Shown piece by piece: positions 17,117 through 30,459 of a stretch of DNA of 64,000 nt. How positions within the stretch are numbered: the first letter of the stretch is position 1; each line of letters begins with the position of its first letter. Made by a program: the position numbers and the translations under genes. Location: the sequence record NC_129898.1. One strand, written 5' to 3'. The notes below the pieces were generated by a model. It saw only the letters and a program-made list of their open reading frames with translations. It made no database searches and had not been told where the DNA came from. This DNA comes from a phage.

Positions 17117-17454
17117 CAGAGATCATCATTTCAACTGCAGGGTATGTATTCCTGACAATCATTGCGCTGATCATCTTGGTGGTGGTGTATGGATTTGTTA
17201 TCCTGCCTATTCTTGAGACATTTAGTTTGTGTCGGTGTTGGAGAAAGGCTTACGGACCACAGCCGTGGAAAGACTGGCCTCATCTGTTACGCATAGCGTT
17301 CTCCTATGCCTATGATCACTCCAGCAGTGCATGCATAACTGGGTACCACGCCCACAATTGGAACTGGGAAGGGTTGGGGAGATGGAATGTTACAAAGACT
17401 ATACCTCTACGCATGTACAAAGGAAAAGGTGGGATTGATGGGAATACCTGTTAA
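17113..17454 (+). CDS. hypothetical membrane protein
   Basis: Hydrophobic N-terminal segment (TM helix). Confidence 0.45.
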   Translation: MTEIIISTAGYVFLTIIALIILVVVYGFVILPILETFSLCRCWRKAYGPQPWKDWPHLLRIAFSYAYDHSSSACITGYHAHNWNWEGLGRWNVTKTIPLRMYKGKGGIDGNTC

Positions 17455-18082
17455 AGACAGAAAAGTATGTGGTCGTGGAGTAAACGATTTAAAAGACAAA
17501 GTCCCAATGTACCAATCTGTTAATGGTAAGAGAGTACCAGAACCCCACTATGCTACATGGAAAGCATTATTCCAGAGGTGCTACGGCGATAACTCAAAGT
17601 ACCATACAGGTTGTGAAGTTGTAGAAGATTGGTGGTTGTTCTCAGAATTCTGGAAATGGATGGATACACAAGAGTGGAAAAGAGACGCTAAGAAGTTCAC
17701 TCTTGACAAAGATCTGAAAATCCCTGGAAACAGAATATACTCCCCAGAAACATGCATGTTTGTTCCACCACAAATAAACACCCTATTTGGCATAAGACAG
17801 GCAGCACGAGGGGATTTACCTTTGGGTGTGACACTTAGAAAAGATGTAAACAAGTATCTCGTGCATTGTCATCGAGATGGAAAAATTGTTCATGGCGGTC
17901 ATTTCGATGATCCACAGACAGCACACAAGGTGTGGCAAGAAATGAAACTTGAGGAGATGAAACTTCAGGCTATTAAAAACAAAGATGAGATTTGGCTGTT
18001 CGCCATTAAACGTGCAATAACTATCCTTGAGAATGATTTGAAAAATAATAAGGAGACTATAACATTGGTGAAATTTATTTAA
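17438..18082 (+). CDS. hypothetical protein, possible homing-endonuclease-associated DNA-binding protein
   Basis: HYATWKALFQRCYG...GCEVVEDWWLFSEFWKWM pattern recalled from phage HNH/AP2-type proteins; no catalytic motif identified. Confidence 0.4.
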   Translation: MGIPVKDRKVCGRGVNDLKDKVPMYQSVNGKRVPEPHYATWKALFQRCYGDNSKYHTGCEVVEDWWLFSEFWKWMDTQEWKRDAKKFTLDKDLKIPGNRIYSPETCMFVPPQINTLFGIRQAARGDLPLGVTLRKDVNKYLVHCHRDGKIVHGGHFDDPQTAHKVWQEMKLEEMKLQAIKNKDEIWLFAIKRAITILENDLKNNKETITLVKFI

Positions 18083-18410
18083 GATATTTATGGTAGTATT
18101 TATTTTAAAATTATAAAAATTTTAGGCGATGAGGGAAAATATGTAATGGATTTTCCCTTATTTATCAGATATTTGCAGATATTTGGAAATCCTTAGAAAA
18201 TCAGAAAATGGATCGAAAACTAAAATGGATTTTTTCAAGACAGGCACGATAAGCTGCGCTGCTCATTCTATCGTTCGCACCGTACTTCAAATCACCATTC
18301 CAGATTTTCCGCACATACTCTCACCCCTCTGCCAGAACTTTCCCAACTTACCTTCAGCCTTTTATGACAATAAGTTAATTATTATCAGTAAGTTTTGATA
18401 CATCTCTCTC

Positions 18411-18590
18411 AGTACTCGATCTGTTTTTCATTTCAAAGATTGGATTTTCTGAAAATTTTTCTCGATAAATTTTTCGGTACTCGATCTGTTTTTCGTTTTC
18501 TGAATCGGATTTTCTTGAAATTGGTCCAGCACCAGATCTAAAATTTTTGGGAACGAAAGCGATTTTTCGTTTTCAGAAATGGATTTTTAA
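18411..18590 (+). repeat. tandem imperfect direct repeats (about 60-70 bp period, 3 copies)
   Basis: GTACTCGATCTGTTTTTC[A/G]TTTC...GGATTTTCT at 18411 and 18477, diverged copy at about 18559. Confidence 0.6.
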
Positions 18591-18733
18591 AATTTCTATA
18601 TGGGAATATTTTATGAGGTATTATTTTATATAGAATTGTCACGGTAGGTAATTAGCATGCTAACTAAATTTATGAAATGCGAAAAGTTCTCATTTAGAAT
18701 TTTGAATGATAATCATTCTCGTTTGCAGAATAA

Positions 18734-18758
18734 CGGGCACCCCCGGTGATTGTCTCCC
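18734..18758 (+). repeat. 25-bp element CGGGCACCCCCGGTGATTGTCTCCC
   Basis: Near-copy at 18875-18894; exact inverted copy at 27133-27158. Confidence 0.6.
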
Positions 18759-19064
18759 GGCCCCTACTGCCCCGGCTTGTTATTATAGTATCACACAGGA
18801 CAAAGAAAGCAAGAAGTTTTTGCATAAATTTTTAGACGATAATGATAATCGTTCTCATTTCATGCAGCGCCCATCCCCGGTGGTTGTCTCCCCCGTCACC
18901 GGTGCCTGCCGTCCTTTCGATATGTATATTGTGCCACCTGGCGGGGCCGCTGTCAACACTTTTCAAAAAAATTCTAACCTGATGCGCTAACCGTTGCAAC
19001 CTGGCGGGGCCAGCCTGGTGGGCCTATGCTATAGGATAGTAACAATTGAAGAGGAGGTACAAAA

Positions 19065-19181
19065 ATGGAAGGTAATATGATCCCCCTGGAAAATGTAGCT
19101 ATTAATGACGCTGAGGCTATCGCCCTGGTTGAAAAGGCTATGGCGGGAGCGTTGGAACATAAAGAAGAGTACGAAAAATGA
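19065..19181 (+). CDS. hypothetical small protein (38 aa)
   Basis: GAGGAGG RBS before ATG; below ORF-track length cutoff. Confidence 0.4.
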   Translation: MEGNMIPLENVAINDAEAIALVEKAMAGALEHKEEYEK

Positions 19182-19243
19182 CGGTTAACCTGGCAGGGGC
19201 GGCGGCTGGGGAATTTTGCCCAAAAAATAATTTTAACTAGTGG

Positions 19244-19272
19244 TTGACAGCTCGGACAGTTTTTGTTATTCT
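19244..19272 (+). promoter_or_regulatory. sigma70-like promoter
   Basis: TTGACA - 17 nt - TATTCT upstream of ORF 19326. Confidence 0.5.
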
Positions 19273-19325
19273 TATCCTCGCAAGGTGAACAACACCACAC
19301 TAATTAACAGAGAGGATAAAAAATC

Positions 19326-19523
19326 ATGAACGCCTACGGAATCAAAGTACGTCGCAGCACTCGCCAGGTGGTCACCGATCAAATGATTTGCCAGGTGGAT
19401 GTGACCATCAACAACGGGCAAGGCCTTTATAAATTCCGTCGCGGTCAGAGCTATACCCGGCAACAGCTTAATCGTTGCGCCCTGACAAAAGGCCAGATCA
19501 ACCACTGGTTTAATAAAAAATAA
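19326..19523 (+). CDS. hypothetical small protein
   Basis: Promoter and GAGAGGA RBS upstream. Confidence 0.5.
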   Translation: MNAYGIKVRRSTRQVVTDQMICQVDVTINNGQGLYKFRRGQSYTRQQLNRCALTKGQINHWFNKK

Positions 19524-19526
19524 GTA

Positions 19527-19555
19527 TTGACATATAGGCCGACACCAAATACACT
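19527..19555 (+). promoter_or_regulatory. sigma70-like promoter
   Basis: TTGACA - 17 nt - TACACT upstream of ORF 19588. Confidence 0.5.
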
Positions 19556-19587
19556 AAAAGCACAAAAGACACTGAGAGGATAAAATC

Positions 19588-19986
19588 ATGAAAACCACCA
19601 CCTTTAATTTTGATAATGCGGACTTTTCTTTTTCTGATGTCAAAAACTGCCGCCGTGATCGTGGATTTTACAAGGCCTATAATCTGGTGGGCCTGGACGA
19701 TGACAATAATTTGCACGAAGTAGCTGAGATCCGGTATTATGCCGCCGCCAGCGGGAACACTTACTACTGCGTTTTTTGGATACACGACAACAAGAACAAT
19801 AAGTACGGCTATACTGGCGGCAAGGCGAGCGGTCACGGTTACGATAAAGCTAACGCAGCACTTGAGAGCGCATTAAATGCTATGGGGATCACTGCCGACG
19901 GCTGGATCTACGAAGAAGAGTTTTTGTCGGCACTTGCTGCCCATCTAGGGTATAAAAAGCACATTGTGACATGTGCCCACGAATAA
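19588..19986 (+). CDS. hypothetical protein (132 aa)
   Basis: Promoter and GAGAGGA RBS upstream. Confidence 0.5.
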   Translation: MKTTTFNFDNADFSFSDVKNCRRDRGFYKAYNLVGLDDDNNLHEVAEIRYYAAASGNTYYCVFWIHDNKNNKYGYTGGKASGHGYDKANAALESALNAMGITADGWIYEEEFLSALAAHLGYKKHIVTCAHE

Positions 19987-20068
19987 AAATCATTGACACG
20001 CTGCAAAATTCAAGTAAACTAGACACAAAAGGCGGGAATGTTTCCCGCCAACACAAAGGAAAAAGATC

Positions 20069-20473
20069 ATGAATAAGAACGTACGCCGCATCATGAACGA
20101 GTTGGCAAACGATGAAAAAATTATTGACATGCATTTGATCAACATTTGCCGCCGTTGTGTAACATATAACAACCGCGCCGCAAAAGCGCGTGAGATGAAC
20201 GCAAAAGGCACCTTAAAGCCATTCCAGGTGGTGGTAAAGGCCATTAAAAATGTAACTAATACGGCAAACCAGGTACAGGGGAACACCAACGAGAGTACCA
20301 ATATTGATCCGGCTTACATCATGAAACGGATCCGGACCTATAAGAACAAAGAGCAAGTGTATAATGTTATAGACTGGTTGGATTCTATGGGCGACGTGGT
20401 GTACAATAGATTCTCGGCAGCTATTGAGATCCAGCTTGACAGGTTGGACGGTAAAGTACTGAAAACTTATTAA
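20069..20473 (+). CDS. hypothetical protein (134 aa)
   Basis: Promoter 19992-20019, hairpin GGCGGGAATGTTTCCCGCC, CA-rich leader, RBS. Confidence 0.5.
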   Translation: MNKNVRRIMNELANDEKIIDMHLINICRRCVTYNNRAAKAREMNAKGTLKPFQVVVKAIKNVTNTANQVQGNTNESTNIDPAYIMKRIRTYKNKEQVYNVIDWLDSMGDVVYNRFSAAIEIQLDRLDGKVLKTY

Positions 20474-20521
20474 GTTTATTTTTAGATGGCCTTGACTCTA
20501 GGGCCATCAATAAAGTAAACT
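20474..20521 (+). repeat. conserved intergenic hairpin/promoter-like module (copy 1 of 4)
   Basis: ATTTATTTTTAGATGGCCTTGACTCTAGGGCCATCAATAAAGTAAAC; stem GATGGCC/GGCCATC with TTGAC in loop. Confidence 0.55.
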
Positions 20522-20553
20522 AGTCTCAACTAAGCGAAAAAGGGGGCTTTAAG

Positions 20554-20673
20554 ATGAGCACTACACGCCAATACACAAAGGTAACTATTATCGTTTGCGT
20601 TGTCGGTTACATCCTGGCGCAAATGTTAATGAGTAGCGCCAACAGTTTTGCAAAATTTTTCTTAAATTTTTAA
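20554..20673 (+). CDS. hypothetical small membrane peptide (39 aa)
   Basis: AAAGGGGG RBS; hydrophobic core. Confidence 0.35.
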   Translation: MSTTRQYTKVTIIVCVVGYILAQMLMSSANSFAKFFLNF

Positions 20674-20701
20674 TTGACAAGTAAATCTCAATAAGTATAC
20701 T
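20674..20701 (+). promoter_or_regulatory. sigma70-like promoter
   Basis: TTGACA - 16 nt - TATACT; near-identical promoter at 22512-22539. Confidence 0.55.
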
Positions 20702-20752
20702 TAAACACGTAAACGGGAAAACTTCCCAGAACACACAAAAGGAGAAAACACC

Positions 20753-21094
20753 ATGACTACTATGACCGCCGCAGAAAAAGCTATGCAGATCGCCGCGCTG
20801 AAAAAACAGATCGCAGACCTTGAGAACAAGATCGATAACTTTGAAATCGACGAGGACAAGTACGACGAAAACTATAATGAATGGCTAGACGAGATCCACG
20901 GCGAAATTATGATCGGTAACATTTCTTTTCTTCCGTCGCGTATCCTCAAAGAGTTAGATCCTATTGCTTACCGCTGCGGATTTAGCGATTACATCGATAG
21001 CCTGGATATTGAGGACGATGAAGAGTACCAAGAATTGCAGATAGAGCTGGGAGAAGTGAAAGAGGAGCTTTCAAAGCTGGAAGAGAACGAGTAA
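20753..21094 (+). CDS. hypothetical acidic coiled-coil protein
   Basis: Promoter, hairpin, leader, AGGAGA RBS. Confidence 0.5.
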   Translation: MTTMTAAEKAMQIAALKKQIADLENKIDNFEIDEDKYDENYNEWLDEIHGEIMIGNISFLPSRILKELDPIAYRCGFSDYIDSLDIEDDEEYQELQIELGEVKEELSKLEENE

Positions 21095-21095
21095 A

Positions 21096-21143
21096 ATTTA
21101 TTTTTAGATGGCCTTGACTCCAGGGCCATCAATAAAGTAAACT
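21096..21143 (+). repeat. conserved intergenic hairpin/promoter-like module (copy 2)
   Basis: Near-identical to 20474-20521. Confidence 0.55.
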
Positions 21144-21181
21144 TTACACTGTTAACACTGAACTAATGAGGAGTTAAAACT

Positions 21182-21427
21182 ATGGCAGCACTAATCACCA
21201 AATATTATGCGCCTACCAACACAAAAAGCGCCCGTATCATGGTAAAAGGCTTCGGACGTAAAAAGGTTTACGCCTGGGACTATTCCCTAGATATGGAAGA
21301 CAATTATACCAACGTAATGACCGATTTTATTAATGATCTGAATAAACAGATCTTAACCGACTACAAAGTGACCGATATTGCTTACATAGGTGAAGGCGGG
21401 ATCTGTTTTGTAGGCATTGTGAAATAG
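21182..21427 (+). CDS. hypothetical small protein
   Basis: GAGGAG RBS. Confidence 0.5.
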   Translation: MAALITKYYAPTNTKSARIMVKGFGRKKVYAWDYSLDMEDNYTNVMTDFINDLNKQILTDYKVTDIAYIGEGGICFVGIVK

Positions 21428-21470
21428 TTATTTTTCGGTGGTCCTGGTTGCAGGGCCATCTATAAAGATA
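21427..21470 (+). repeat. conserved intergenic hairpin module (diverged copy 3)
   Basis: TTATTTTTCGGTGGTCCTGGTTGCAGGGCCATCTATAAAG. Confidence 0.4.
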
Positions 21471-21502
21471 ATTTATTAACACCATGAAAGGAGAAAGTAC
21501 AC

Positions 21503-21856
21503 ATGATCAGCGGGGCTAGTTTTATTATTGGCGCTATTGCTACGGCTTTAATTGTAAACAAGATCCAGGATAAAAAGGAAAGAGGAAGTACCGCCCTTGC
21601 AGAATATCCATTTTGGACATTTAACGATAACGAAGATTATATTATAAAGTATAAAAATAAAGAAGGCGACCAAGTAACACCGCGACCGATCCCGGCTTAC
21701 AAAATGCAGGAAACACTATACCGCTTGGAGGCGGGGGGCGCAAAAATTGTTGACTTTTGGGGATACGACCACACAGATCAGGAAGTTATAAAGCGCCGTA
21801 TCCGGGCTATTCAGGCCAATATTGAGGTTAACAAGGGGGGAATATATGAAAATTAA
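21503..21856 (+). CDS. hypothetical membrane-anchored protein
   Basis: N-terminal hydrophobic helix; AAGGAGA RBS. Confidence 0.5.
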   Translation: MISGASFIIGAIATALIVNKIQDKKERGSTALAEYPFWTFNDNEDYIIKYKNKEGDQVTPRPIPAYKMQETLYRLEAGGAKIVDFWGYDHTDQEVIKRRIRAIQANIEVNKGGIYEN

Positions 21857-22043
21857 TTTCGAGAAAATTGTAAAGCGCCCTCATGATTCCGAAGAGTTGC
21901 CAGAACGCCGACAGCGCAACAATAAACTGAATAAGCCAAAAAGGTTTGGGAAGATCTGGCGGAATCATTATGATCGTAAATTGCCCGGCCTACTTTTGGA
22001 ACGTGAACGACAGGCAGAACGATACCGCCATAAAGACAAATAA
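21846..22043 (+). CDS. hypothetical basic small protein
   Basis: ATG 21846 after AAGGGGGG; Arg/Lys-rich. Confidence 0.4.
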   Translation: MKINFEKIVKRPHDSEELPERRQRNNKLNKPKRFGKIWRNHYDRKLPGLLLERERQAERYRHKDK

Positions 22044-22051
22044 CAACCAAC

Positions 22052-22080
22052 GCCCCGCCATTGTGCGGGGCTTTTTATTT
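22052..22080 (+). terminator. intrinsic terminator
   Basis: CCCCGC-CATTGT-GCGGGG hairpin followed by CTTTTTATTT. Confidence 0.55.
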
Positions 22081-22261
22081 CTATCCTACGAATAGCGCCC
22101 CTGGTTGGCCCTGTAAGCGCCAAAAAGGCCCCCACCTATGCAATCGCCCCCTTTAACCTGAAAACATCGCTCAGGGCCGTTTTATAGCGTTAAAAATATC
22201 ATTGACATCGTCAACAGGTTAGCTATACTAACCACATCAAAGAGAGAAAGGAGTAAACGCC

Positions 22262-22522
22262 ATGCGTAAATTAAAAAATTTTGATAAAGTTGATGTTATC
22301 CTGAATAATTTTTACTACTGCAACAACAAGGCTATTTGGTGGCGGGATAGTTCCACCGATAAAGTCAAGGCGCGCTTTCTTCAGGGGCACTGGCAAGGCC
22401 GCCCAGTGATTAAAATCATGGGGCAATTGGTAGCGTTTAAAAATTGCCGCCGTGTTGATGACGTTGAGGAGATTTTAAACATTTTGCGCCACAATAATTT
22501 AAAAAATAGTGTTGACAAGTAA
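22262..22522 (+). CDS. hypothetical small protein
   Basis: Promoter-like TTGACA at 22203; GGAG RBS. Confidence 0.45.
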   Translation: MRKLKNFDKVDVILNNFYYCNNKAIWWRDSSTDKVKARFLQGHWQGRPVIKIMGQLVAFKNCRRVDDVEEILNILRHNNLKNSVDK

Positions 22523-22539
22523 ATCTCAATAAGTATAAT
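22512..22539 (+). promoter_or_regulatory. sigma70-like promoter (consensus -10)
   Basis: TTGACA - 16 nt - TATAAT; followed by hairpin GGCGGGAAAACTTCCCGCC. Confidence 0.6.
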
Positions 22540-22596
22540 TAAACACACAGGCGGGAAAACTTCCCGCCACTAACAAAGAAAACAGGAGAAAATATC

Positions 22597-23220
22597 ATGA
22601 CCACCGTTAACATTACCACAGGTTACAATTTATCTTTCGACGTGCTGACCGACGAACAAAAAGAAAAAGCCATTGAAATGGTCCGCGAAAGAGAAGAACG
22701 CAGCGGGGATGATTTTTTCGCAGAAAATGTAATTGATTACTACAAAGAATATATCTTTCCAGAGTACGGCCTTGAGGATACCGAAGTACATTGGTCCGGC
22801 TTTTGGTGTCAAGGCGATGGCGCATCGATTAGTGCTGAAAATGTAGACTTAGAAAAATTCTTGCGTAAAGTCAAGGCCCTGACCAAGTTCAGATCAATTC
22901 GTCACTTGTTCGGCACAATGCACGATGGCGAACTATCCGCCAGTGTTGAACGCGACAAGTACAGCCATTACAGCCATGAAAACACTGTAAGCGGGTACAT
23001 TGATACCACTTGGATAGATCTGACCGCCAAACAAGAAAACAAAGTGGAAGATCTGGAAGAATTGATCACCGAGACGGTACGGGAGCTATCCCGCAAGGTT
23101 TACGTAGACCTTGAGGAGGCCTATCTAGAACAGTTCACCGCAGAAAACCTGATCGGCCTTATTCAGGCCAATGATTGGCGGTTTGATGTCGATGAATATG
23201 GTGAGATGACTTTTTCATAA
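22597..23220 (+). CDS. hypothetical acidic protein (207 aa)
   Basis: Largest ORF of the small-gene block; promoter, hairpin, leader, AGGAGA RBS. Confidence 0.55.
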   Translation: MTTVNITTGYNLSFDVLTDEQKEKAIEMVREREERSGDDFFAENVIDYYKEYIFPEYGLEDTEVHWSGFWCQGDGASISAENVDLEKFLRKVKALTKFRSIRHLFGTMHDGELSASVERDKYSHYSHENTVSGYIDTTWIDLTAKQENKVEDLEELITETVRELSRKVYVDLEEAYLEQFTAENLIGLIQANDWRFDVDEYGEMTFS

Positions 23221-23313
23221 ATAAAGTGTTGCAATAACCTAAAAACCTGCTATATTAAAACTCAAGGCGGGCGAGACGTTTGCCCGCCAACACAAAACAA
23301 AGAGGATAACATC

Positions 23314-23694
23314 ATGAAAAATACTACCAAGGCTATTGACACCGTTATGTTTAACCTGGTTACATTCCGTGAAGATATGAAAGATCTTCCGCGTGAAACA
23401 GTGTGCGACCATATCGAAAACTATCGCAAACTAATCAAAGAGTTGCCTTTAAAACGTGATCAATATGCGGCTAACGCCATGCTTAATGCCATGATCAAAA
23501 AGATGATCCAGTGTGATTTAACCCTGGCCTATGATTATGCAGGCGGTCGTTTTGCAGTATACAATCAGCCCGTGCCCGGTATGAGTACCACCGAAGAATT
23601 GCACGCGCTCAATCTAAAACAGGACGTGTGGGATAGTATGCCTCGCGTGGTGGTATGGGTAGAAAGCGGAAAGATTTACGGCGATAATTTTTAA
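23314..23694 (+). CDS. hypothetical protein (126 aa)
   Basis: Promoter-like TTGCAA/TATATT, hairpin GGCGGGCGAGACGTTTGCCCGCC, RBS. Confidence 0.5.
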   Translation: MKNTTKAIDTVMFNLVTFREDMKDLPRETVCDHIENYRKLIKELPLKRDQYAANAMLNAMIKKMIQCDLTLAYDYAGGRFAVYNQPVPGMSTTEELHALNLKQDVWDSMPRVVVWVESGKIYGDNF

Positions 23695-23758
23695 TCAGGT
23701 AGCAGGCGGCATATTTGCCGCCTTATTGTTGATCAGAACTGCAAAAGAGGTACATAGA

Positions 23759-24130
23759 ATGGAATTTATTATTTTGGCTGTATTGGTTGCCTTATTTAAC
23801 GCCTGGATCGCTGGCAAGATGGGAAGATCCGCCTTTTTATGGTTTATTATATCTATTTTCCTGGGGGTGGTTGCAACTATTGTATTGGTTATCCTTGCAA
23901 TTGTTGACAAGGGGAATAATAGAAAGGGTAAAGTATTTTCAGACCTGTACGACGCTCAAACTTTTGTTAACGCCTATTATAGTGATCTCCCAGTCTCCCT
24001 ACGTTGCAGCCTTGCACAACAGGTTTTCGATGAAGCTAAAACCAGAGACCACGCCCATGAGATTTGTTTAACTGAGGCGGATCGCTTATTTGAGAGGAAT
24101 AGAAAATATGTGGGCCAGCCGTTTAAATAA
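23759..24130 (+). CDS. hypothetical membrane protein
   Basis: Two predicted TM helices; ATG 23759 after AAGAGG. Confidence 0.45.
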   Translation: MEFIILAVLVALFNAWIAGKMGRSAFLWFIISIFLGVVATIVLVILAIVDKGNNRKGKVFSDLYDAQTFVNAYYSDLPVSLRCSLAQQVFDEAKTRDHAHEICLTEADRLFERNRKYVGQPFK

Positions 24131-24349
24131 TACCACGTTAATTAATCCATTTAGTGAAGATTTGAGGCCAGCCGCCTGGCGGGATGGATTCAATAACGAA
24201 AAATTTACTTTTAGGCCTGATCTTGAGGAATTTTATAACAATGGATCGAACAACGACAGAGATAATTTTTCTTGCGGTGTGTGTCGTGATCGGACTACTG
24301 GGAGCCATTGCAAACCACGTAACCGCTAACAGAAGGAAAGGGGGAGACG

Positions 24350-24469
24350 ATGACACCCAAGGATAAGCCCCGCACCGATAAGGCGCGCCGTGTTATGGTA
24401 TGGCTGGAGATCATCGCCCTTGAAATATTGTTAGGCGTAGGGATGTATTTTATCGCCGTACGTACCTGA
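24350..24469 (+). CDS. hypothetical small membrane peptide (39 aa)
   Basis: AGGGGGAG RBS; hydrophobic C-terminus. Confidence 0.35.
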   Translation: MTPKDKPRTDKARRVMVWLEIIALEILLGVGMYFIAVRT

Positions 24470-24615
24470 TAACGGCCCCCGATCCCTGGGGGCCTGACTT
24501 TTTTCAAAAAAATTTTTCTTCCGGGGTGTTGCAATCCGGTCCGGGATATGGATAATAACAATCAACGGGGAGACACTCCCCACCACACAGACAAAGTTCC
24601 AAAAGGAGAAACAAA

Positions 24616-24816
24616 ATGAGCAACAATATCCGCGTTATTAATTTCAAAAAAGAAGAAAAAATCGCTGTGCTGGTTGATGGTCAAGAAATATTCAAGGGGT
24701 ATTATGAAGATCATCAGGCGGCGATCAGTATTACCCGCGTAATTGGTTACCATAATTTTTACCCTCAAGGCGCTGAGGCAGCAGTAAAACGAATTAAAGA
24801 GATCGTAGGCCTGTAA
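24616..24816 (+). CDS. hypothetical small protein
   Basis: Hairpin GGGGAGACACTCCCC, CA-rich leader, AAGGAGA RBS. Confidence 0.5.
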   Translation: MSNNIRVINFKKEEKIAVLVDGQEIFKGYYEDHQAAISITRVIGYHNFYPQGAEAAVKRIKEIVGL

Positions 24817-24817
24817 A

Positions 24818-24866
24818 ATTTATTTTTAGATGGCCTTGACCCCAGGGCCATCAAATAAAGTAAATT
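24818..24866 (+). repeat. conserved intergenic hairpin/promoter-like module (copy 4)
   Basis: Near-identical to 20474-20521. Confidence 0.55.
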
Positions 24867-24908
24867 TAAACCCTGCTAAAATAATCAGTGCAAAAAGGAG
24901 CAATGATC

Positions 24909-25208
24909 ATGTTTATACCCGCCAATAATCTTTATTTCTTTGATGGTCAGATCGTAGACGGCGTGGAAGTTGAGATCACTGGATGTCAAGGCGGCCAGGT
25001 AATGATCTTCCGCAATAGTGCCTTTAACGATCATTTTATTACAATGACTGTGGAAGTTAAAAAGCTGGATGATAAGAAAACACTCATTGACTATTCCGTG
25101 AAAGATCATCCAGACTACCACATGATCTATGGTGATTTGTGCATTGTTGACCGTGACAAGGTGGGCGGCATTGTGATCGCTATTGTGAACGATGTTTTCT
25201 CTGAATAA
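24909..25208 (+). CDS. hypothetical small protein
   Basis: AAGGAG RBS; start ATG 24903 or 24909. Confidence 0.45.
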   Translation: MFIPANNLYFFDGQIVDGVEVEITGCQGGQVMIFRNSAFNDHFITMTVEVKKLDDKKTLIDYSVKDHPDYHMIYGDLCIVDRDKVGGIVIAIVNDVFSE

Positions 25209-25430
25209 TTCCGGCAAATGATGCAAAATAAGGCCCATGGCAGGGCCTGCAGCGATATAATCACACAAAGGCTATGCGGTTGCATGGCCTTTTTTATTTT
25301 AGCGCTACAGCGGCCCCCAAGGCGTTTAAAAAATTTTTAAAAGTACTTGCATCAAGTCCGACAATATGGATAATAAGACTTATCAGGGGGCGGCCCCCAA
25401 TCATTAACCGGATAGATAGGAGTTAAAATC

Positions 25431-25715
25431 ATGGCTATTGTTACTGTTGGCGATGTAGTAGAAATGGAAGCAAAATACTTAAAAGCGGGTATGCATATCC
25501 TACGCAACGATCTTGAACTAGTCCTGACAATGGTCGACTATAATCCCGGTCAGGATTATCCAAGCATCGACTACTTTTTCCAGTATGTTGATGAAGAATT
25601 AAAAGAGGATGAGGCTTATCAGGGTGAATTTTGTAATTTCTTTTGCCCTGACGAGATTGTAAAAGTTATCTATCAACCTGGCGTACCTTTCCCGTTGCAC
25701 GCCATCAATAAATAA
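25431..25715 (+). CDS. hypothetical small protein
   Basis: Hairpin GGGGGCGGCCCCC, leader, AGGAG RBS. Confidence 0.5.
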   Translation: MAIVTVGDVVEMEAKYLKAGMHILRNDLELVLTMVDYNPGQDYPSIDYFFQYVDEELKEDEAYQGEFCNFFCPDEIVKVIYQPGVPFPLHAINK

Positions 25716-25778
25716 GCCTGGCGGGGCCGAAAAAGGCCCCTCCTGAAAATATGAAAAAATAAAGATAGGTGAATCATC

Positions 25779-26012
25779 ATGATGGAACAAATTAAACGCG
25801 CTGAGGCTATTAATGGTAATGTGATCTATTTTGTCAGCAAAAACGAAAAAGGCGTACCCTATGCGGCGGTAATAGTACAGCCTGACGGCGATTATTGGTG
25901 CACTGTGTACGGCGCTTATTCTTTTGGGCGTCCAGTGCATGATAAAATTTTGAAAGTAGCGAACCCTACCGGGAAAAATATCACAGCAGAAAAATTTTTT
26001 GAAAATAGTTGA
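25779..26012 (+). CDS. hypothetical small protein
   Basis: ORF after hairpin GGGGCC-GAAAAA-GGCCCC. Confidence 0.45.
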   Translation: MMEQIKRAEAINGNVIYFVSKNEKGVPYAAVIVQPDGDYWCTVYGAYSFGRPVHDKILKVANPTGKNITAEKFFENS

Positions 26013-26076
26013 CAACAAACAACAATCTAACAAAGCATAATACATAAGGCGGCAATGATGCCGCCAACATGACAGA

Positions 26077-26340
26077 ATGAGAAACATCATTTACAGACTG
26101 ACAAAACGCAACATTATGATCGCCACCGTGATCGCTTGCCTTTTCGCTTTCGTGAGTAACGCAACGTTTAACGCCGTGGGCGGGGCGATGTTTAATGCTG
26201 GCAGCGTTTCAACAGCTAACACAATGATCGATTGTTTGCAACTTTTCTTTTATGTTGCCTTTCGTTTAAAAATAGCTTGCAAGGTAGACCGTTTTGATTT
26301 ACCTTTCATTTGTGGCGGCGTGATCGCTATCGTATGTTAA
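26077..26340 (+). CDS. hypothetical membrane protein
   Basis: Hydrophobic segments; hairpin GGCGGCAATGATGCCGCC upstream. Confidence 0.45.
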   Translation: MRNIIYRLTKRNIMIATVIACLFAFVSNATFNAVGGAMFNAGSVSTANTMIDCLQLFFYVAFRLKIACKVDRFDLPFICGGVIAIVC

Positions 26341-26613
26341 GGATCAGAAGATGGGAAAACTCTCAATTCTGTTGTTTTATCAAAAACCTTGACAATATCA
26401 GAATGTACAGACGGTTAAAAATAATTGTTGACACCAGGCGCGGATCTGGTAAAGTGTACGACATAGGGCGGGGCAATAAGGCAACGCCCATTAATGATGG
26501 TGGAATCATGTTAGAAAAAATTTTCACGGTTGTAGTAGTTGGCATGGCATTATCGGTTGGAGTGGTTGCAACTATGGCTAACATGATCCTATCTTCCCAC
26601 GGTATCGGGTAAG

Positions 26614-26838
26614 GTGAAACAAATGATCACGAACAAAACAGGGAAAACGGAATTTTTACGCGGCTTGCAAATAGGCAAGCCTGAGATCTGGCATTGCACT
26701 AAAACACCACGTGACGAAATGAAAGACTTTACCGCCACGCTGAAGCGGGTAAAAATATCCATTACGCAGAAAAAAGCCTTGATAGTGGTGGAAGGTGAGA
26801 TCCCTCAAACCGTTGTTATTGTTGAGCGTACAGCATAG
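26614..26838 (+). CDS. hypothetical small protein
   Basis: ORF; start GTG 26614 or ATG 26623. Confidence 0.4.
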   Translation: MKQMITNKTGKTEFLRGLQIGKPEIWHCTKTPRDEMKDFTATLKRVKISITQKKALIVVEGEIPQTVVIVERTA

Positions 26839-26927
26839 TTTAATCTATACCGTACGCCCCATTGACTAACAAAGCATAAGCAGGCGGCGGTGACCGCCTT
26901 GAACGCAACAGAAAGAGAATAGAAAAC

Positions 26928-27062
26928 ATGAGAAAGATAATTATTACCATGGGGATCGTGGCGGCAATGTTGGCGATCTTTCCCTTTATGGTTAGGTATG
27001 TGCTGATCAGTGTTGTCCTGATAGGCAGTGATCTATTGGAAACGGTTGGCAACTGGTTTTAA
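26928..27062 (+). CDS. hypothetical small membrane peptide (44 aa)
   Basis: Hairpin GGCGGCGGTGACCGCC, leader, AGAGAA RBS; hydrophobic. Confidence 0.35.
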   Translation: MRKIIITMGIVAAMLAIFPFMVRYVLISVVLIGSDLLETVGNWF

Positions 27063-27132
27063 GATAATAAACAGGGCTTGAAATGGTCCTGTTTTTTGTT
27101 ATACTTATCTCACGGGTGGCACCTGGCGACGG

Positions 27133-27158
27133 GGGGAGACAATCACCGGGGGTGCCCG
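27133..27158 (-). repeat. inverted copy of the 25-bp element at 18734
   Basis: GGGGAGACAATCACCGGGGGTGCCCG is the reverse complement of the 18734-18758 element. Confidence 0.6.
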
Positions 27159-27265
27159 TTATATAAAAAACTATAAAAACAGTTGACATCTGCCAGGTGG
27201 TTAGGTAACATTTATCTTGAAGGGGCAAAAGTGCCCACACAACAACCGGAAGAGAGGAAAACATT

Positions 27266-27538
27266 ATGTCAAGCTGGATTAATCAAGAAATCGAATCACG
27301 TTTTAATGCTATTTGGGATCTCATCGAAAAAGAGGACGGAACATCAAGCCCTTATCTCAATAACCTGGAATTTCATTTTGTGGAAGCGATGAACGCAGAA
27401 CATGATCACGAAGGTGGCGCGGATGAGTTCGCTCAAGGGTATGGCTTCAACAATGCCAACGAAATGATTGAGGCGGTTGTACTTCAGGCTGAGGAAGATT
27501 ATCAATTAAAAACACTTGAATTTTGCCGCCGTAAGTAA
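27266..27538 (+). CDS. hypothetical acidic small protein
   Basis: Promoter TTGACA 27184, hairpin GGGGCAAAAGTGCCC, leader, AGAGAGGA RBS. Confidence 0.5.
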   Translation: MSSWINQEIESRFNAIWDLIEKEDGTSSPYLNNLEFHFVEAMNAEHDHEGGADEFAQGYGFNNANEMIEAVVLQAEEDYQLKTLEFCRRK

Positions 27539-27599
27539 TAAGATAATGACACTGGCCAAAAGGCCCACCAAACCAGAACCCCATAAAGAGGAAAACATC

Positions 27600-27863
27600 A
27601 TGAAACGCCTTGATCAGCTCAAACTAGTTCAGTACATGGCCTACAAAGTTATTGAAGTCCAAAAAGGTAGTAAAAAGGAGGTTTGCGAGAAAGCGTACAA
27701 GATCTTTACTCGTAAAAAAGATGATTGGATGTTGCGCCAGACCAAAAAGGCTGATATCCTGGGGTACCTGGAAGAAGAGATCCGGCTTGAAGAGCAAGAA
27801 GAGATCCGCCGAAGTGAGGCAGATTATCAGGCAGCTTGGGAAAGCTGGATGAGCAACAAATAG
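27600..27863 (+). CDS. hypothetical small protein
   Basis: AAAGAGGA RBS; last gene of + arm. Confidence 0.5.
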   Translation: MKRLDQLKLVQYMAYKVIEVQKGSKKEVCEKAYKIFTRKKDDWMLRQTKKADILGYLEEEIRLEEQEEIRRSEADYQAAWESWMSNK

Positions 27864-27877
27864 TACAACATTATCAA

Positions 27878-27906
27878 GGGGCCTTAAGGCCCCTTTCTTT
27901 TTTGTT
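27878..27906 (+). terminator. intrinsic terminator ending the + strand arm
   Basis: GGGGCC-TTAA-GGCCCC hairpin followed by TTTCTTTTTTGTTTT. Confidence 0.7.
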
Positions 27907-28511
27907 TTCTCTTTTCCTACCATAAACGGCCCCGCCTGGCAAGTGGAATAATTAACGAGCCATCAATCCCGCACACTGTACAAATATACATGTAAAATAG
28001 TTATTGCATAACCTTTCATTGTGTGGTAGCGGTGCTATTTTTACCTGTTTTCTCTCCCAAAATTGCACGTAATGCAGCTATTGCACAAAATTTAACCTGA
28101 TGCACATCTTCAGTATACTGTCAACAATTAAAAACCCTTATAAGTCATACACTTACACAAACCAAAAAGCGCGTCCTACGTGAAAAATCGGGTGTAACTA
28201 TAGCCGACAGATCTCAGAATCCACGTACGATCACCATTCTATAGCCTGCAAAGTATTTATTCCAACCACAGAATAACGGAATAGTCAATACCTGTACAAA
28301 ATAATTATTCGTACAAACTGCATAACATAAACCTGCCCAGGTGTCAACATTTTTCGTAAACAGTTAGAAATTGTCACGATAGGTTACTATAATCAGAGAA
28401 ATATTTAGTCGTCTAATGTTTACTGTACATAACTATACTGACTGGAATCATTAGATGACTAAGAGAAAGATAAGAAATAGTTAACAATGTAATTGTTTTA
28501 CCTGTAACAAT

Positions 28512-28688
28512 AAGGCAACTATGCAAACGAATGGCATGGCGCGACGGAGTCGCGACATAATATAAAAGCAGTAACAATCACCCCCGTGATAGTTTGTCTG
28601 CAATCTATTAATCAGATCATAGTTGCCTTGTATTTAGTTAATCATGACATAACAAGCAAGGCAACTATAGATCTTCTAATAGTTGCCC
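28512..28688. repeat. paired inverted repeats AAGGCAACTAT / ATAGTTGCC
   Basis: AAGGCAACTAT at 28512 and 28658; reverse complement at 28619 and 28679; palindrome GCGAC-GGA-GTCGC at 28541. Confidence 0.6.
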
Positions 28689-28761
28689 TGCTTTTATATT
28701 ATGTCATAGAAACGCCCGAAGGGGTGACCTAGTCACCTGGCATAGCCAGCGAAATATTATT

Positions 28762-28821
28762 AACTTGTTAATTGTCAGCTTGTTGGCTGTTAGCTTGTCA
28801 ATTGTTAACTTGCTAATTGTT
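28762..28821. repeat. tandem 15-bp repeats (4 units)
   Basis: CTTGTTAATTGTCAG / CTTGTTGGCTGTTAG / CTTGTCAATTGTTAA / CTTGCTAATTGTTAA, contiguous. Confidence 0.65.
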
Positions 28822-30459
28822 AAACTCGGGAGCATAGCCCTCGTCTCAAGGGTGTTATCATGCAAACGAATGTCATGGCTTATCATCTATGCGTAAACTG
28901 TCAGGGTGTAGACTATTCAGGCGTAAACAGTCTATGCGGGAACAATCTATACGTGAACAGTGAAATATGAAATAATAACAGTCGTTATTGTATCGAAAGT
29001 GTATAAGGTGTCAGATTATGGCATATTGTGTGACATTGTGTCAGACAAGTTTTTCTCCTCTTTGTCAAGTGCTGCATGGAAAATTTACAATCTGGTATGG
29101 TAGCATTTTTGCGGCCCTGTTTACATTCAGGAGTGTATGTATAACCCTTGTTGTGTGGGCGTTTAGACGTCTGGACGGTCAGAAGTCTGCAGGTTAATAT
29201 CTAATCTATTGGTCGCTAACTATATCCCCCACAAATAATAAGAAATGCAATTGTTATATGCGTAAACAGTAACTCATGTTATCAATCCCTGTATGTATCG
29301 CCAGTGGTGCGCATAATGGGTATTATGTTAAATTGCCCGTAATGATAACAGTTCTCACAATGATAGGTATTCTCATTCACCCCCACAAAATAGATTGCAA
29401 ATGTTGTGCCACTGTGTGAACGGCCTCGCCTATTAATTTGCCTCACTGCTCCGATATTTGAGAATTGTTATAAGAATGAGAAGTATTCCCATTTCGTCCG
29501 CCTGGCAGCGCTCCTGTAGGTCAGGTCAAAATCGTGGTAGAACTGGACCCCTTCAGATATTTCTAGCTGACTCTTCAGGCCTGTGTGGGAAAAGCCAACC
29601 TCTCCGGCGGGGCAGGGGGGTCAATTAAAAAATTTACGTAGGGTACGAAGCGCTCTTCAGGTAAGGCATGTATTAGAGGATGAAACCCTCTTCAGGTGAT
29701 GATATTTGTGGGTGTGATATTTGCTGGAAAGCCAGATATGACGGGACTACCGGCGGGGATGGGGTAGTATAGGCAGGGAAAATGTGGAGAATGTGGTTGG
29801 TAAATTTATCAGGCAGGTAGAGTATGGGATATGTTACAGGTATGTTAAATATGGAGGTAGGATATTTGTAAGATTTGTGTGTAAAATCAAAGACTTAAGT
29901 GGTGTTGTGGTATTTTCTATAAATAATTCAAGTTTAATAGGTAATATTTGTCTCTATCCACTTTGTGGGGTAAACAGATTCTAATTGAATTGGTTTACAA
30001 GTGTATATAAAGTATACAAATTAAAGATATAAGAAACCCCCCTCCCCCTTCGGCTACCATTCACCTTTTCCTCTGACTGGTACTTAAACACTTATTCAGA
30101 CTCTTCAGGTTATCACCCATATACTATATGGCAGTGACTGGTGTCCTCTGGCCCCTCTTTCGTCACCCGTCCGCTTCGCCATGCTAATGCCATAGCTAAA
30201 GGTTCGGTTGTTCACCCTGTTCACTCAGGTGTATCTCCATACCCCTTCAAACCGAAGAGAACAGAAAACCCGAATTACTCGGTAAAAGAAAAGAGAAGAA
30301 CTTAATTTTATCAGGATAGGCAAGAATGTCAAGGCATGACTGCTCACTAAACAAGCAAACAGTCATGTGTGGGAGGTAAGTGATTGTGGTGGTAGGAAAT
30401 TTAGTTGAAAGATGTGTTATAGGTGCTTCCAGCACTTTAGCCGGGCAGCTAATTGTGTG

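What the first reader, a model, noticed from the sequence alone, without database searches (positions are those of the whole stretch)
18928..27942. Recurring (A)CCTGGCGGGGCC motif in intergenic spacers
Exact copies at 18928, 19000 and 25717, with variants at 19189, 27122 and 27929, always between a stop codon and the next promoter or near the repeat regions. It may be a binding site for a phage or host regulator, or part of a transcript-end structure.
Basis: seen in the sequence. Interest (0 to 1): 0.35.

Follow-up and report, generated by a model that had tools for sequence, protein, structure and literature searches.

The report
Conserved GC-rich 12-mer, phage early region
A 12-base GC-rich sequence really does recur three times, unchanged across related rV5-like E. 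coli phages, at the head of and inside the block of small early genes, but it is a modest lineage-specific control-region element whose exact job (most likely a recognition site tied to early promoters and hairpins) cannot be settled from sequence alone.

Summary
The window comes from an rV5-like phage (Vequintavirus, 96.5% identical to FV3). CCTGGCGGGGCC occurs exactly three times, at 18937, 19000 and 25717, all on the + strand. Whole-window shuffles never reproduce this (0/100), nor do shuffles confined to the GC-rich islands (0/2000). The complete FV3 genome has the same three copies and no others.

All three copies are near-invariant in 10 Vequintavirus genomes, even where their flanks change.

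19189 evolves as coding sequence in relatives. 27122 belongs to a different repeat. 27929 is an inverted 1-mismatch copy that relatives do not conserve.
- **The three contexts differ.** Copy 1 fills the 17-bp spacer of a conserved leftward sigma-70 promoter. Copy 2 ends a ~330-bp ultra-conserved non-coding block. Copy 3 supplies the 5' arm of an intercistronic hairpin with no U-tract.
- **One relative is informative.** JLBYU08 has deleted exactly the interval between copies 1 and 2.

My best reading (about 0.35) is a sequence-specific recognition site within promoter/stem-loop (PeSL-like) cassettes. The main rivals are a cassette relic (0.3) and an RNA-level element (0.2). Interest is low to moderate.

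The parts
18937..18948 (+). Motif copy 1 (exact CCTGGCGGGGCC). It lies wholly inside the 17-bp spacer of the leftward promoter listed below.
   Evidence: Exact in 9 of 10 Vequintavirus genomes; Gotham has T->C.
19000..19011 (+). Motif copy 2 (exact). It is preceded by the palindromic hexamer TTGCAA (18993-18998) and followed by AGCCTGG. It marks the right edge of the ultra-conserved non-coding block, 53 nt upstream of the first early-gene start codon at 19065.
   Evidence: Exact in all 9 genomes that keep two copies. slur16 lacks TTGCAA but keeps the motif. Sequence immediately to the right falls into about 5 different types among relatives.
25717..25728 (+). Motif copy 3 (exact). It starts 1 nt after the stop codon of gene 25431-25715, and its last 6 nt form the 5' arm of a hairpin.
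   Evidence: Exact in 9 of 10 genomes; IMGVR has C->A.
25723..25740 (+). Intercistronic hairpin GGGGCC-GAAAAA-GGCCCC (the loop is GAAAA in most relatives). No U-tract follows on the + strand.
   Evidence: -18.6 kcal/mol, z = -2.77. The same hairpin occurs as the promoter spacer in Certrevirus PBES02.
18928..18956 (-). Leftward sigma-70-type promoter TTGACA-GCGGCCCCGCCAGGTGG-CACAAT, with TG before the -10 and AAAAGTG upstream of the -35. Its spacer is the reverse complement of copy 1.
   Evidence: Conserved in 9 of 10 Vequintavirus genomes; the -10 is CATAAT in IMGVR and, from the printed flank, in MiataMamis. The -35 is deleted in JLBYU08. Sequence prediction only; no transcript data.
27928..27939 (-). 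Degenerate inverted copy CCAGGCGGGGCC (1 mismatch), about 30 nt downstream of the last early-gene terminator. Probably not a functional copy.
   Evidence: Not conserved: 2 mismatches in rV5, Gotham and IMGVR, and none in FV3. No local structure.
19189..19200 (+). It is coding sequence of the first early gene in relatives, not a motif copy.
   Evidence: One search shows the reading frame and third-position changes. One search shows the 58-aa FV3 form matching phrog_21957 end to end.
27117..27165 (-). Element E3, the inverted copy of the C-rich 'E' repeat.
   Evidence: I3: 29-nt perfect inverted repeat with 18730-18758. Present in 10 of 10 genomes.
18650..19018 (.). Ultra-conserved non-coding block holding Fur-box-like palindromes (18702-18720, 18838-18856), elements E1 (18730-18780) and E2 (18862-18912), and motif copies 1 and 2.
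   Evidence: 0.86-1.0 identity per 20-nt bin, against 0.62-0.80 further left. The ORF annotated here in relatives is broken in 3 of 10 genomes.

Best explanation
CCTGGCGGGGCC is a conserved, strand-fixed cis element specific to Vequintavirus. It belongs to the promoter/stem-loop cassettes that punctuate the early (small-ORF) region of these phages.

Most likely it is read sequence-specifically, as an operator-like site for a phage-encoded or host DNA-binding factor that modulates early transcription. Two copies sit at the control block heading the early cluster. One fills the -35/-10 spacer of a leftward sigma-70 promoter, where a bound protein would block RNA polymerase. The other sits at the entry to the first early gene. 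A third copy lies inside the cluster, where its 3' half also forms the 5' arm of an intercistronic RNA hairpin.

Shown here: the copies, their non-randomness, their conservation, the predicted promoter and hairpin contexts, and the natural deletion between copies 1 and 2.

Inferred: that one factor reads all three copies, that it acts on DNA, and that the effect is repression or modulation of transcription.
For: - There are three identical 12-mers with sharp edges. The flanks are unrelated except for 4 of the 5 preceding bases shared by copies 1 and 2. Chance is excluded even within GC-rich islands.
- The complete FV3 genome has only these three exact copies, all in the early region and on the same strand.
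- In 10 Vequintavirus genomes the 29 copies present carry 2 substitutions in total, while the flanks change. slur16 loses the TTGCAA before copy 2, and the sequence right of copies 2 and 3 falls into about 5 unrelated types.
- Copy 1 exactly occupies the spacer of a promoter that matches the phage's early-promoter pattern.
- The leftward promoter at the corresponding position in two other genera (same relative location, not aligned) carries near-identical strings in its spacer, and in the opposite orientation. PBES02 has CCCGGCGGGGCT and PVP-SE1 has CCTGGCGGGGAT. That pattern fits recognition of duplex DNA.
- Copies 1 and 2 show no RNA structure beyond shuffled controls.
- Copy 2 plus AG forms the dyad CTGGC-GGG-GCCAG.
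Against: - No binding protein was identified. The neighbouring genes are all unknown-function PHROGs.
- Copy 3 has no canonical promoter next to it in the window.
- Copy 1 to copy 2 spacing varies from 63 to 69 bp among genomes, so helical phasing is not kept.
- JLBYU08 is a viable phage with only one head copy and without the -35 of the leftward promoter.
- Copies 1 and 2 lie in a block where almost everything is conserved, so their conservation is not specific to the motif.
- All three copies share one orientation, which fits an RNA or transcription-coupled reading equally well.
- GC-rich promoter spacers are a general feature in sister genera.
Confidence: 0.35

Rival explanations
1. The motif has no dedicated reader and is a cassette relic. 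On this view the three copies descend from duplicated promoter/stem-loop (PeSL-like) intergenic cassettes, and each is now held by a local constraint. Copies 1 and 2 are held by whatever constrains the whole non-coding block, and copy 3 by its hairpin. The only shared consequence is microhomology that allows recombination and deletion.
For: - The motif matches 9 of 11 bases of TTGACGGGGCC, which is the -35 plus first spacer-hairpin arm of Certrevirus early promoters. The copy-3 hairpin GGGGCC-GAAA(A)-GGCCCC is the spacer hairpin of PBES02 promoters at L022 14576 and 14965.
- The window has longer repeated promoter/hairpin cassettes of its own (D1, D3, D4).
- JLBYU08 deleted exactly the interval between copies 1 and 2.
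- GC-only runs are concentrated in 18-30 kb (57 of 65 all-GC 8-mers), so GC-rich material is abundant there.
- Copies 1 and 2 sit in a uniformly conserved block.
- Conservation of CCTGGC at copy 3 is not significant on its own, with one change among 10 related genomes.
Against: - Identity stops sharply at 12 nt, with no decaying similarity in the flanks.
- Neither a hairpin arm nor a promoter spacer normally constrains exact sequence.
- The 12-mer never recurs three times when GC islands are shuffled.
- No genome among 137 matching records shows a copy 1 to copy 3 recombination junction.
Confidence: 0.3
2. The motif is an RNA-level element of sense early transcripts. It would be read in the leader of the first early gene and between two co-transcribed genes. 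Possible roles are a protein-binding or processing/stability signal, or a nut-like antitermination site, given that copy 3 is followed by a boxB-like GAAAA-loop hairpin.
For: - All three conserved copies are on the sense strand of the early genes.
- Copy 2 lies 53 nt and copy 3 lies 50 nt upstream of the next start codon, and neither downstream gene has its own canonical promoter.
- Copy 3 forms a significant hairpin whose loop is GAAAA in most relatives.
- The rV5 authors place this whole region in one long transcription unit (PMC3606486).
Against: - Copies 1 and 2 have no conserved structure.
- No boxA-like sequence is visible in the sequence upstream of copy 3 (no dedicated search was run). 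No N-like protein was looked for.
- The window's loop is GAAAAA and IMGVR's is GATAA.
- Similar strings in other genera lie on the opposite strand relative to early transcription.
- There is no Rfam match.
- Distances to start codons are not kept in relatives.
Confidence: 0.2
3. The motif is part of intrinsic (Rho-independent) terminators.
For: Copy 3 is a GC-rich hairpin directly after a stop codon. On the - strand the same hairpin is followed, after 4 nt, by a U-rich stretch (UUAUUUAUU).
Against: - No U-tract follows the hairpin on the + strand, and the terminator scan did not list it.
- Copies 1, 2 and 27928 form no hairpin.
- The gene downstream of copy 3 has no promoter of its own, so termination there would silence it.
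Confidence: 0.05
4. The motif is part of a replication-origin or R-loop region. In this reading, G-rich motif copies downstream of promoters and next to iteron-like repeats favour stable RNA-DNA hybrids that prime replication.
For: Three iteron-like ~65-nt repeats lie at 18402-18587. Promoter-like sites on both strands are each followed by a transcript that would be G-rich. Replication genes lie just upstream.
Against: This is purely architectural inference. Copy 3 is far from the iteron-like repeats. The rV5 skew analysis found no origin signal other than changes tied to transcription direction (PMC3606486). A 12-nt G-cluster is short for R-loop nucleation.
Confidence: 0.07

Closest known systems
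PeSLs (promoter-early stem-loop cassettes) of T4-like phages (Arbiol et al. 2010; Comeau et al. 2014, PMC4122927)
   Same: Both are short conserved GC-rich (G_N-loop-C_N) stem-loops and sigma-70 early promoters repeated between small ORFan genes in a plastic early region, and both are linked to indels between close relatives. Here, copy 3 is a G4CC-loop-GGC4 stem-loop, copy 1 overlaps an early-type promoter, JLBYU08 has a deletion between two copies, and the flanks to the right of copies 2 and 3 are mosaic.
   Different: Only one of the three copies has a stem-loop. No copy has the canonical stem-loop-then-promoter order. The conserved unit is a 12-mer rather than a 50-70-nt cassette. The phage is not T4-like.
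Certrevirus/Vequintavirinae sigma-70-like early promoters (AAAA-N3/4-TGTTGAC-N17/19-TATAAT; Pectobacterium phage CB7 paper, PMC7344957)
   Same: The leftward promoter around copy 1 (AAAAGTGTTGACA-N17-CACAAT) fits this pattern. In PBES02, GC-rich spacers that often carry GGGCC...GGCCC inverted repeats are the rule (about 22 promoters). The motif differs from TTGACGGGGCC at 2 of 11 positions.
   Different: The motif itself is not a usable -35 (CCTGGC or CTGGCG), and no conserved -10 follows copies 1-3 on the + strand. Most Vequintavirus early promoters in the window do not have GC-rich spacers.
Operators placed in a promoter spacer (repressor occlusion, as in many phage and bacterial promoters)
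   Same: Copy 1 fills the 17-bp spacer. Copy 2 plus AG has partial dyad symmetry. The sequence is conserved beyond what a spacer requires.
   Different: No cognate protein is known. Copy 3 is not at a promoter. The dyad is imperfect and is absent from copies 1 and 3.
Lambda nut boxB and RfaH ops elements (transcription-coupled recruitment sites in operon leaders)
   Same: These are short, orientation-fixed elements in the leader and interior of a long early operon. Copy 3 carries a GC stem with a GAAAA loop in most relatives. The motif shares GGCGG with ops (GGCGGTAGCGTG).
   Different: There is no boxA. Loop length and sequence vary. The T6, A7 and G8 of ops are not present. Copies 1 and 2 lack any hairpin. 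These resemblances are recalled from memory and were checked only by eye against the sequence.

Membership tests
PeSL-like promoter/stem-loop cassette | GC-rich stem-loop (G_N-loop-C_N) | tested here: inconclusive
   Present at copy 3 (z = -2.8). Absent at copies 1, 2 and 27928 (z > 0).
PeSL-like promoter/stem-loop cassette | Sigma-70 early promoter immediately downstream of the stem-loop | tested here: not met
   No canonical + strand promoter follows any copy in the window. Copy 1 lies inside a promoter on the opposite strand. rV5-type genomes have only a weak CTGGCG-N16-AATTAT at copy 3.
PeSL-like promoter/stem-loop cassette | Intergenic position in an ORFan-rich plastic region, in several conserved copies | tested here: met
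   All copies are non-coding and lie in the small-ORF early region. The neighbouring genes are unknown-function PHROGs. There are three conserved copies.
PeSL-like promoter/stem-loop cassette | Association with indel or recombination breakpoints between close relatives | tested here: met
   JLBYU08 has a deletion exactly between copies 1 and 2. Flanks to the right of copies 2 and 3 are hypervariable. However, no copy 1 to copy 3 junction exists in 137 records.
Intrinsic (Rho-independent) terminator | GC-rich hairpin followed directly by a U-tract | tested here: not met
   Copy 3 has the hairpin but is followed by UCCUGAAAAUAUG. It is not listed by the terminator scan. The other copies have no hairpin.
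Sigma-70 promoter core element | The motif supplies a -35 or -10 hexamer at canonical spacing | tested here: not met
   The motif sits in the spacer of the leftward promoter at copy 1. As a -35 it scores 0-3 of 6, and no conserved -10 lies downstream.
Transcription-factor operator | Specific binding by a regulator | not testable with these tools
   No candidate protein was found. This needs EMSA, pull-down or ChIP.
Transcription-factor operator | Overlap with promoter core and/or dyad symmetry | tested here: inconclusive
   Copy 1 is in a predicted spacer. Only copy 2 has a dyad (CTGGC-GGG-GCCAG). Copy 3 is not at a promoter.
Known structured RNA family (Rfam) or tRNA-like element | Covariance-model or ARAGORN match | tested here: not met
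   There is no Rfam hit at gathering or E-value thresholds in 18000-19300 or in the loci from other genera. No tRNA was found.
Chi site / RfaH ops | GCTGGTGG, or GGCGGTAGnnTG | tested here: not met
   There are no Chi sites in the window. The motif differs from ops at T6, A7 and G8 (read directly from the sequence; the ops consensus is from memory).
Lambda-type nut site | boxA plus a boxB hairpin with a GNRA-like pentaloop, and an N-type protein | tested here: inconclusive
   The GAAAA loop is present in most relatives, but the window has GAAAAA and IMGVR has GATAA. No boxA-like sequence lies upstream. An N-like protein was not searched for.

The most novel reading that the evidence does not exclude
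The 12-mer may be one component of a previously undescribed, deeply conserved non-coding control locus at the head of the early gene cluster. The locus contains iteron-like repeats, two to four Fur-box-like palindromes, and C-rich 'E' elements with a 29-nt perfectly inverted third copy 8.4 kb away. Part of it is kept across Vequintavirinae and Stephanstirmvirinae. In this reading the motif is the binding site of a dedicated regulator, or part of small RNAs, that couples early phage transcription (or replication start) to host state such as iron/Fur.
Probability: 0.15. Interest if true: 0.6.

Novelty: new variant of a known kind. Interest (0 to 1): 0.3.

Why it matters
If the 12-mer is a true recognition site, it would mark a regulatory node of the poorly understood early programme of rV5-like phages. 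These phages are widely used against E. coli O157, yet they carry no known polymerase-modifying factors and their early genes are almost all of unknown function. The motif would then provide a handle, through pull-down, for finding the regulator.

The analysis also gives three practical results:
- The ORF annotated over this region in many GenBank records (rV5 ORF198 and its homologues) is very probably not a gene.
- The identical repeats are natural deletion points, as JLBYU08 shows, which is relevant for phage engineering.
- The region harbours Fur-box-like palindromes conserved across two phage subfamilies. This may be the more interesting lead.

If the motif is only a cassette relic, the finding is ordinary.

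Tried and rejected
- **Structured RNA.** Rfam gave nothing at gathering or E-value thresholds. Folding of 18700-19064 on both strands gave z = -0.5 and -0.2. A copy 1 / copy 2 long-range stem is predicted in the window but is no better than shuffles and differs between genomes.
- **tRNA or tRNA remnant.** The reverse complement GGCCCCGCCA looks like a tRNA 3' end, but ARAGORN found nothing in the window or in 12 relatives.
- **Host-derived sequence.** 18640-19064 has no blastn match in 5,426 E. coli genomes.
- **Protein-coding explanation.** The motif falls in different frames at different copies. The annotated ORF 18706-18990 is broken in 3 of 10 genomes. By eye, a minus-strand 43-aa ORF also appears frameshifted in JLBYU08.
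- **Chi, ops and sigma-54 (-24/-12) readings.** The sequences do not fit (plus inspection).
- **Recombination between copies 1 and 3.** No such junction exists in 137 matching phage records.
- **Clues from neighbouring proteins.** PHROGs and Pfam give only unknown-function families.
- **Deeper conservation test of copy 3.** The upstream gene exists only in Vequintavirus.
- **IMG/VR scan with a neighbouring protein.** It returned a single relative.
- **Literature.** No paper in the library contains the 12-mer in a phage context. The rV5 and CB7 genome papers do not mention it.
- **E1 as a structured RNA.** Across 12 genomes from 6 genera, only a 4-bp hairpin with 2 compensatory changes was found.

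Full report
**Identity of the window.**
- Megablast of 18000-28500 hits 254 phage records, nearly all rV5-like Escherichia phages (Vequintavirus). The best is FV3, at 96.5% identity over 97% of the query.
- Comparison with the annotated FV3 genome orients the window. Positions 1-18 kb (+ strand) carry replication genes: helicase, methyltransferases, helicase/primase and DNA polymerase. The polymerase contains a group I intron at 8146-8433.
- Positions 19.06-27.86 kb carry about 30 small genes of unknown function on the + strand.
- Positions 27.9-30 kb form a large non-coding region around the physical genome end. The 459-bp terminal repeat annotated in phage Gotham maps to about 29044-29502.
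- The rV5 authors treat all these + strand genes as one long transcription unit and mark a 'non-coding' box (PMC3606486).

**The observation.**
- CCTGGCGGGGCC occurs exactly three times, at 18937, 19000 and 25717, all on the + strand. No copy appears in 100 dinucleotide shuffles.
- The early region is unusually rich in pure G+C runs: 57 of the window's 65 all-GC 8-mers lie in 18-30 kb, and all ten GGCGGGG heptamers lie in 18.9-29.8 kb. I therefore used a stricter null, shuffling bases only within the 111 GC-rich islands of 17.5-30.5 kb. No 12-mer reached three copies in 2000 trials.
- Among all 12-mers present three or more times in the window, only 17 exist. They form three groups: the -35 region of the early promoters, a 61-nt repeated promoter cassette, and this motif.
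- In the complete 136,947-bp FV3 genome the exact motif again occurs three times only, at the same three places and on the same strand.

**The 'variants'.**
- 27929 is CCAGGCGGGGCC on the minus strand. It sits about 30 nt after the last early terminator. It is poorly conserved, with 2 mismatches in rV5, Gotham and the IMG/VR relative and none in FV3.
- 19189 is coding. FV3 and Gotham read through it in a 58-aa protein that matches phrog_21957 end to end. The differences between genomes are third-position changes. The window's gene is truncated because an A-run is one base shorter.
- 27122 shares only CACCTGGCG with the motif. It lies inside an inverted copy (E3, 27117-27165) of another repeated element.
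It is the loop plus 3' arm of a terminator-like hairpin, and the loop differs in every relative.

**Conservation.**
- I compared ten Vequintavirus genomes spanning about 83-97% identity: the window, rV5, FV3, Gotham, an IMG/VR contig, Mangalyan, slur16, JLBYU08, MiataMamis and navn.
- The 29 copies present carry only two substitutions in total: copy 1 T->C in Gotham, and copy 3 C->A in the IMG/VR contig.
- The flanks are less stable. slur16 has lost the TTGCAA before copy 2. The sequence immediately right of copy 2 (after AGCCTGG) and right of the copy-3 hairpin falls into about five unrelated types.
- Copies 1 and 2 are, however, the right-hand end of a block (about 18650-19018) that is 0.86-1.0 identical throughout, against 0.62-0.80 further left. 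Their conservation is therefore not specific to the motif.
- The block is not a gene. The ORF annotated there in FV3, rV5, Gotham and Mangalyan (window 18706-18990) has a stop at codon 8 in two genomes and a frameshift in JLBYU08, while the DNA stays conserved.
- JLBYU08 joins the left flank of copy 1 directly to the right flank of copy 2. The interval between the two direct repeats has been deleted. The repeats are thus recombinogenic, and the interval is dispensable.

**Context of each copy.**
- *Copy 1* is the reverse complement of the 17-bp spacer of a minus-strand promoter-like site. The site reads AAAAGTG-TTGACA-GCGGCCCCGCCAGGTGG-CACAAT, with TG before the -10. It fits the early-promoter pattern described for Certrevirus (AAAA-N-TGTTGAC-N17-19-TATAAT; PMC7344957). 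It is conserved in 9 of 10 genomes, and the -10 improves to CATAAT in IMGVR and, from the printed flank, in MiataMamis.
- *Copy 2* follows the self-complementary hexamer TTGCAA and has no -10 at canonical distance in most genomes. With the next two bases it forms the dyad CTGGC-GGG-GCCAG.
- *Copy 3* starts one base after a stop codon. Its GGGGCC pairs with GGCCCC across a GAAAAA loop (GAAAA in most relatives), at -18.6 kcal/mol and z = -2.8. No U-tract follows, and the terminator scan does not list it.
- Copies 1, 2 and 27928 fold no better than shuffles on either strand. A predicted copy 1 / copy 2 stem is not supported across genomes.
- There is no Rfam family, tRNA or E. coli homologue.

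**Relatives in other genera.**
- The left part of the block, a Fur-box-like palindrome plus the first C-rich element, is recognisable at 75-89% identity in Certrevirus, Mydovirus, Seunavirus and Henunavirus. It also appears in Phapecoctavirus, which belongs to a different subfamily, Stephanstirmvirinae, where one hit (phage ukendt) is only 69.9% identical.
- In those phages a leftward promoter lies at the corresponding position, next to the promoter of the first early gene. I did not align these promoters, so orthology is inferred from relative location only.
- Its spacer is GC-rich and in two genera nearly identical to the motif, but in the opposite orientation relative to the promoter. PBES02 has TTGACG-G-CCCGGCGGGGCT-AGTC-CATAAT, and PVP-SE1 has TTGCAT-CCTGGCGGGGAT-CGTG-TACTAT.
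- In PBES02 about 22 early promoters share the architecture TTGACR + GC-rich 17-18-nt spacer + CATAAT. The spacer usually contains an inverted repeat such as GGGGCC-GAAA-GGCCC. That is the same hairpin as at copy 3, and TTGACGGGGCC differs from the motif at only 2 of 11 positions.
- PBES02 also has its own sharply bounded 12-mer, CCCGCCGGGCCG, five times on one strand, in non-coding, spacer and even coding contexts.
- The closest described class is the PeSL, the composite stem-loop/early-promoter cassette of T4-like phages that flanks ORFan genes and mediates indels (PMC4122927).

**Interpretation.**
- The firm facts are these: three identical, sharply bounded 12-mers on one strand, confined to the early region, and conserved where flanks vary. 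One lies in a promoter spacer, one at the edge of a conserved control block, and one forms a hairpin arm.
- Neither a hairpin arm nor a promoter spacer normally constrains exact sequence. A common sequence-specific reader is therefore the most economical explanation, and the orientation flip in other genera favours duplex DNA. I give this about 0.35.
- Several points weigh against it. No protein is identified. Copy 3 lacks a promoter. Copy 1 to copy 2 spacing drifts between 63 and 69 bp. JLBYU08 lives with a single head copy.
- A relic of PeSL-like cassettes with only local constraints is nearly as likely (0.3).
- An RNA-level signal in sense transcripts gets 0.2, an origin/R-loop role about 0.07, and a classical terminator role 0.05.

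**Novelty and verdict.**
- The motif is not mentioned in the searched literature.
- It is best described as a lineage-specific variant within the known kind 'conserved promoter/stem-loop regulatory cassettes of phage early regions'.
- As a stand-alone finding it is of low-to-moderate interest (0.3).
- The surrounding non-coding block is the more intriguing object, and I record it separately. It contains Fur-box-like palindromes scoring 17/19 and 15/19 against the consensus, where random sequence gives 0.5 sites per window at 15/19 or better. It also contains the triplicated E element and the iteron-like repeats.

Noticed in passing
window 18083-19064: This is a non-coding region of about 1 kb at the head of the early gene cluster. 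Its right-hand 370 bp is more conserved (0.86-1.0) than neighbouring genes. The ORF annotated over it in FV3, rV5, Gotham and Mangalyan (window 18706-18990, rV5 ORF198) is broken by a stop or frameshift in 3 of 10 genomes, so it is probably a mis-annotation.
   Followed up: yes
window 18702-18720, 18838-18856; weaker at 29338-29378 and 29470-29492: There are Fur-box-like palindromes scoring 15/19 and 17/19 against GATAATGATAATCATTATC, where random sequence gives about 0.5 sites at 15/19 or better per window. Two to four copies of AATGAGAATCATTCTCATT are conserved at the same place in Certrevirus, Mydovirus, Seunavirus, Henunavirus and Phapecoctavirus. This may reflect host Fur or iron input, or a phage repressor operator.
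   Followed up: partly
window 18730-18780 (E1), 18862-18912 (E2), 27117-27165 (E3, inverted): A C-rich element (CCCCGGTGRTTGTCTCCC...) is present three times in all 10 Vequintavirus genomes. E1 and E3 share a 29-nt perfect inverted repeat 8.4 kb apart. The E1 core is conserved across two subfamilies. Only a 4-bp hairpin with 2 compensatory changes could be supported as RNA structure.
   Followed up: partly
window 18402-18587: Three iteron-like direct repeats of about 47 nt lie at about 65-74-nt spacing (GTACTCGATCTGTTTTTCGTTTTC...GGATTTTC). Analogous repeats occur in the other genera. This could be an origin of replication or another protein-binding array.
   Followed up: no
window 17387-18082: An HNH endonuclease gene (phrog_953, E = 5e-65) is present here. 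The interval about 17421-18177 containing it is missing from the blastn alignments to FV3, rV5 and Gotham, which suggests an insertion relative to those phages, right at the left border of the non-coding region.
   Followed up: partly
window 8146-8433: A group I intron (Rfam RF00028, 75.6 bits) interrupts the DNA polymerase gene. FV3 has an HNH homing endonuclease gene at the corresponding place.
   Followed up: no
window 19065-19181: The first early gene is 38 aa here but 58 aa in FV3 and Gotham, where it matches phrog_21957 over its full length. The cause is an A-run one base shorter (GAAAAATGA against GAAAAAATGATGG). This may be a sequencing error, a natural frameshift or slippage-prone expression.
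   Followed up: partly
window 20461-20521, 21083-21143, 21413-21473, 24805-24865: A four-copy 61-nt intergenic cassette contains a promoter-like site (TTGACT-N18-TAAACT) whose -35 lies in the loop of a dyad GATGGCC...GGCCATC. There are also repeated promoter plus 5'-UTR hairpin cassettes (D3 and D4). All of this is PeSL-like.
   Followed up: no
L016 (phage JLBYU08) about 2364: A natural deletion removes exactly the interval between motif copies 1 and 2. A T-run expansion also occurs upstream of Fur-like box 2.
   Followed up: yes
L022 (Cronobacter phage PBES02) 2890, 3107, 3622, 10339, 11430: PBES02 has its own sharply bounded GC-rich 12-mer, CCCGCCGGGCCG, five times on one strand. The contexts are non-coding DNA, a promoter spacer and two coding regions. 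One coding copy is flanked by ATCAT on both sides. About 22 early promoters have inverted repeats in GC-rich spacers.
   Followed up: partly
window 27900-29900: This is a large non-coding region around the genome terminus. It contains a 15-nt tandem array (28765-28825), repeated GCGTAAACNGTC and CTCTTCAGG motifs, and G-rich CCGGCGGGGCAGGGGGG (29603-29619; the GGCGGGG core starts at 29606) and CCGGCGGGGATGGGG (29749-29763; core starts at 29752). The latter reads CCTGGCGGGGCA in rV5.
   Followed up: no
window 18000-30000 against the rest: Pure G+C runs are almost confined to the early region: 57 of 65 all-GC 8-mers, and all 10 GGCGGGG heptamers. They occur mostly in intergenic hairpins and promoter-adjacent elements.
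   Followed up: partly
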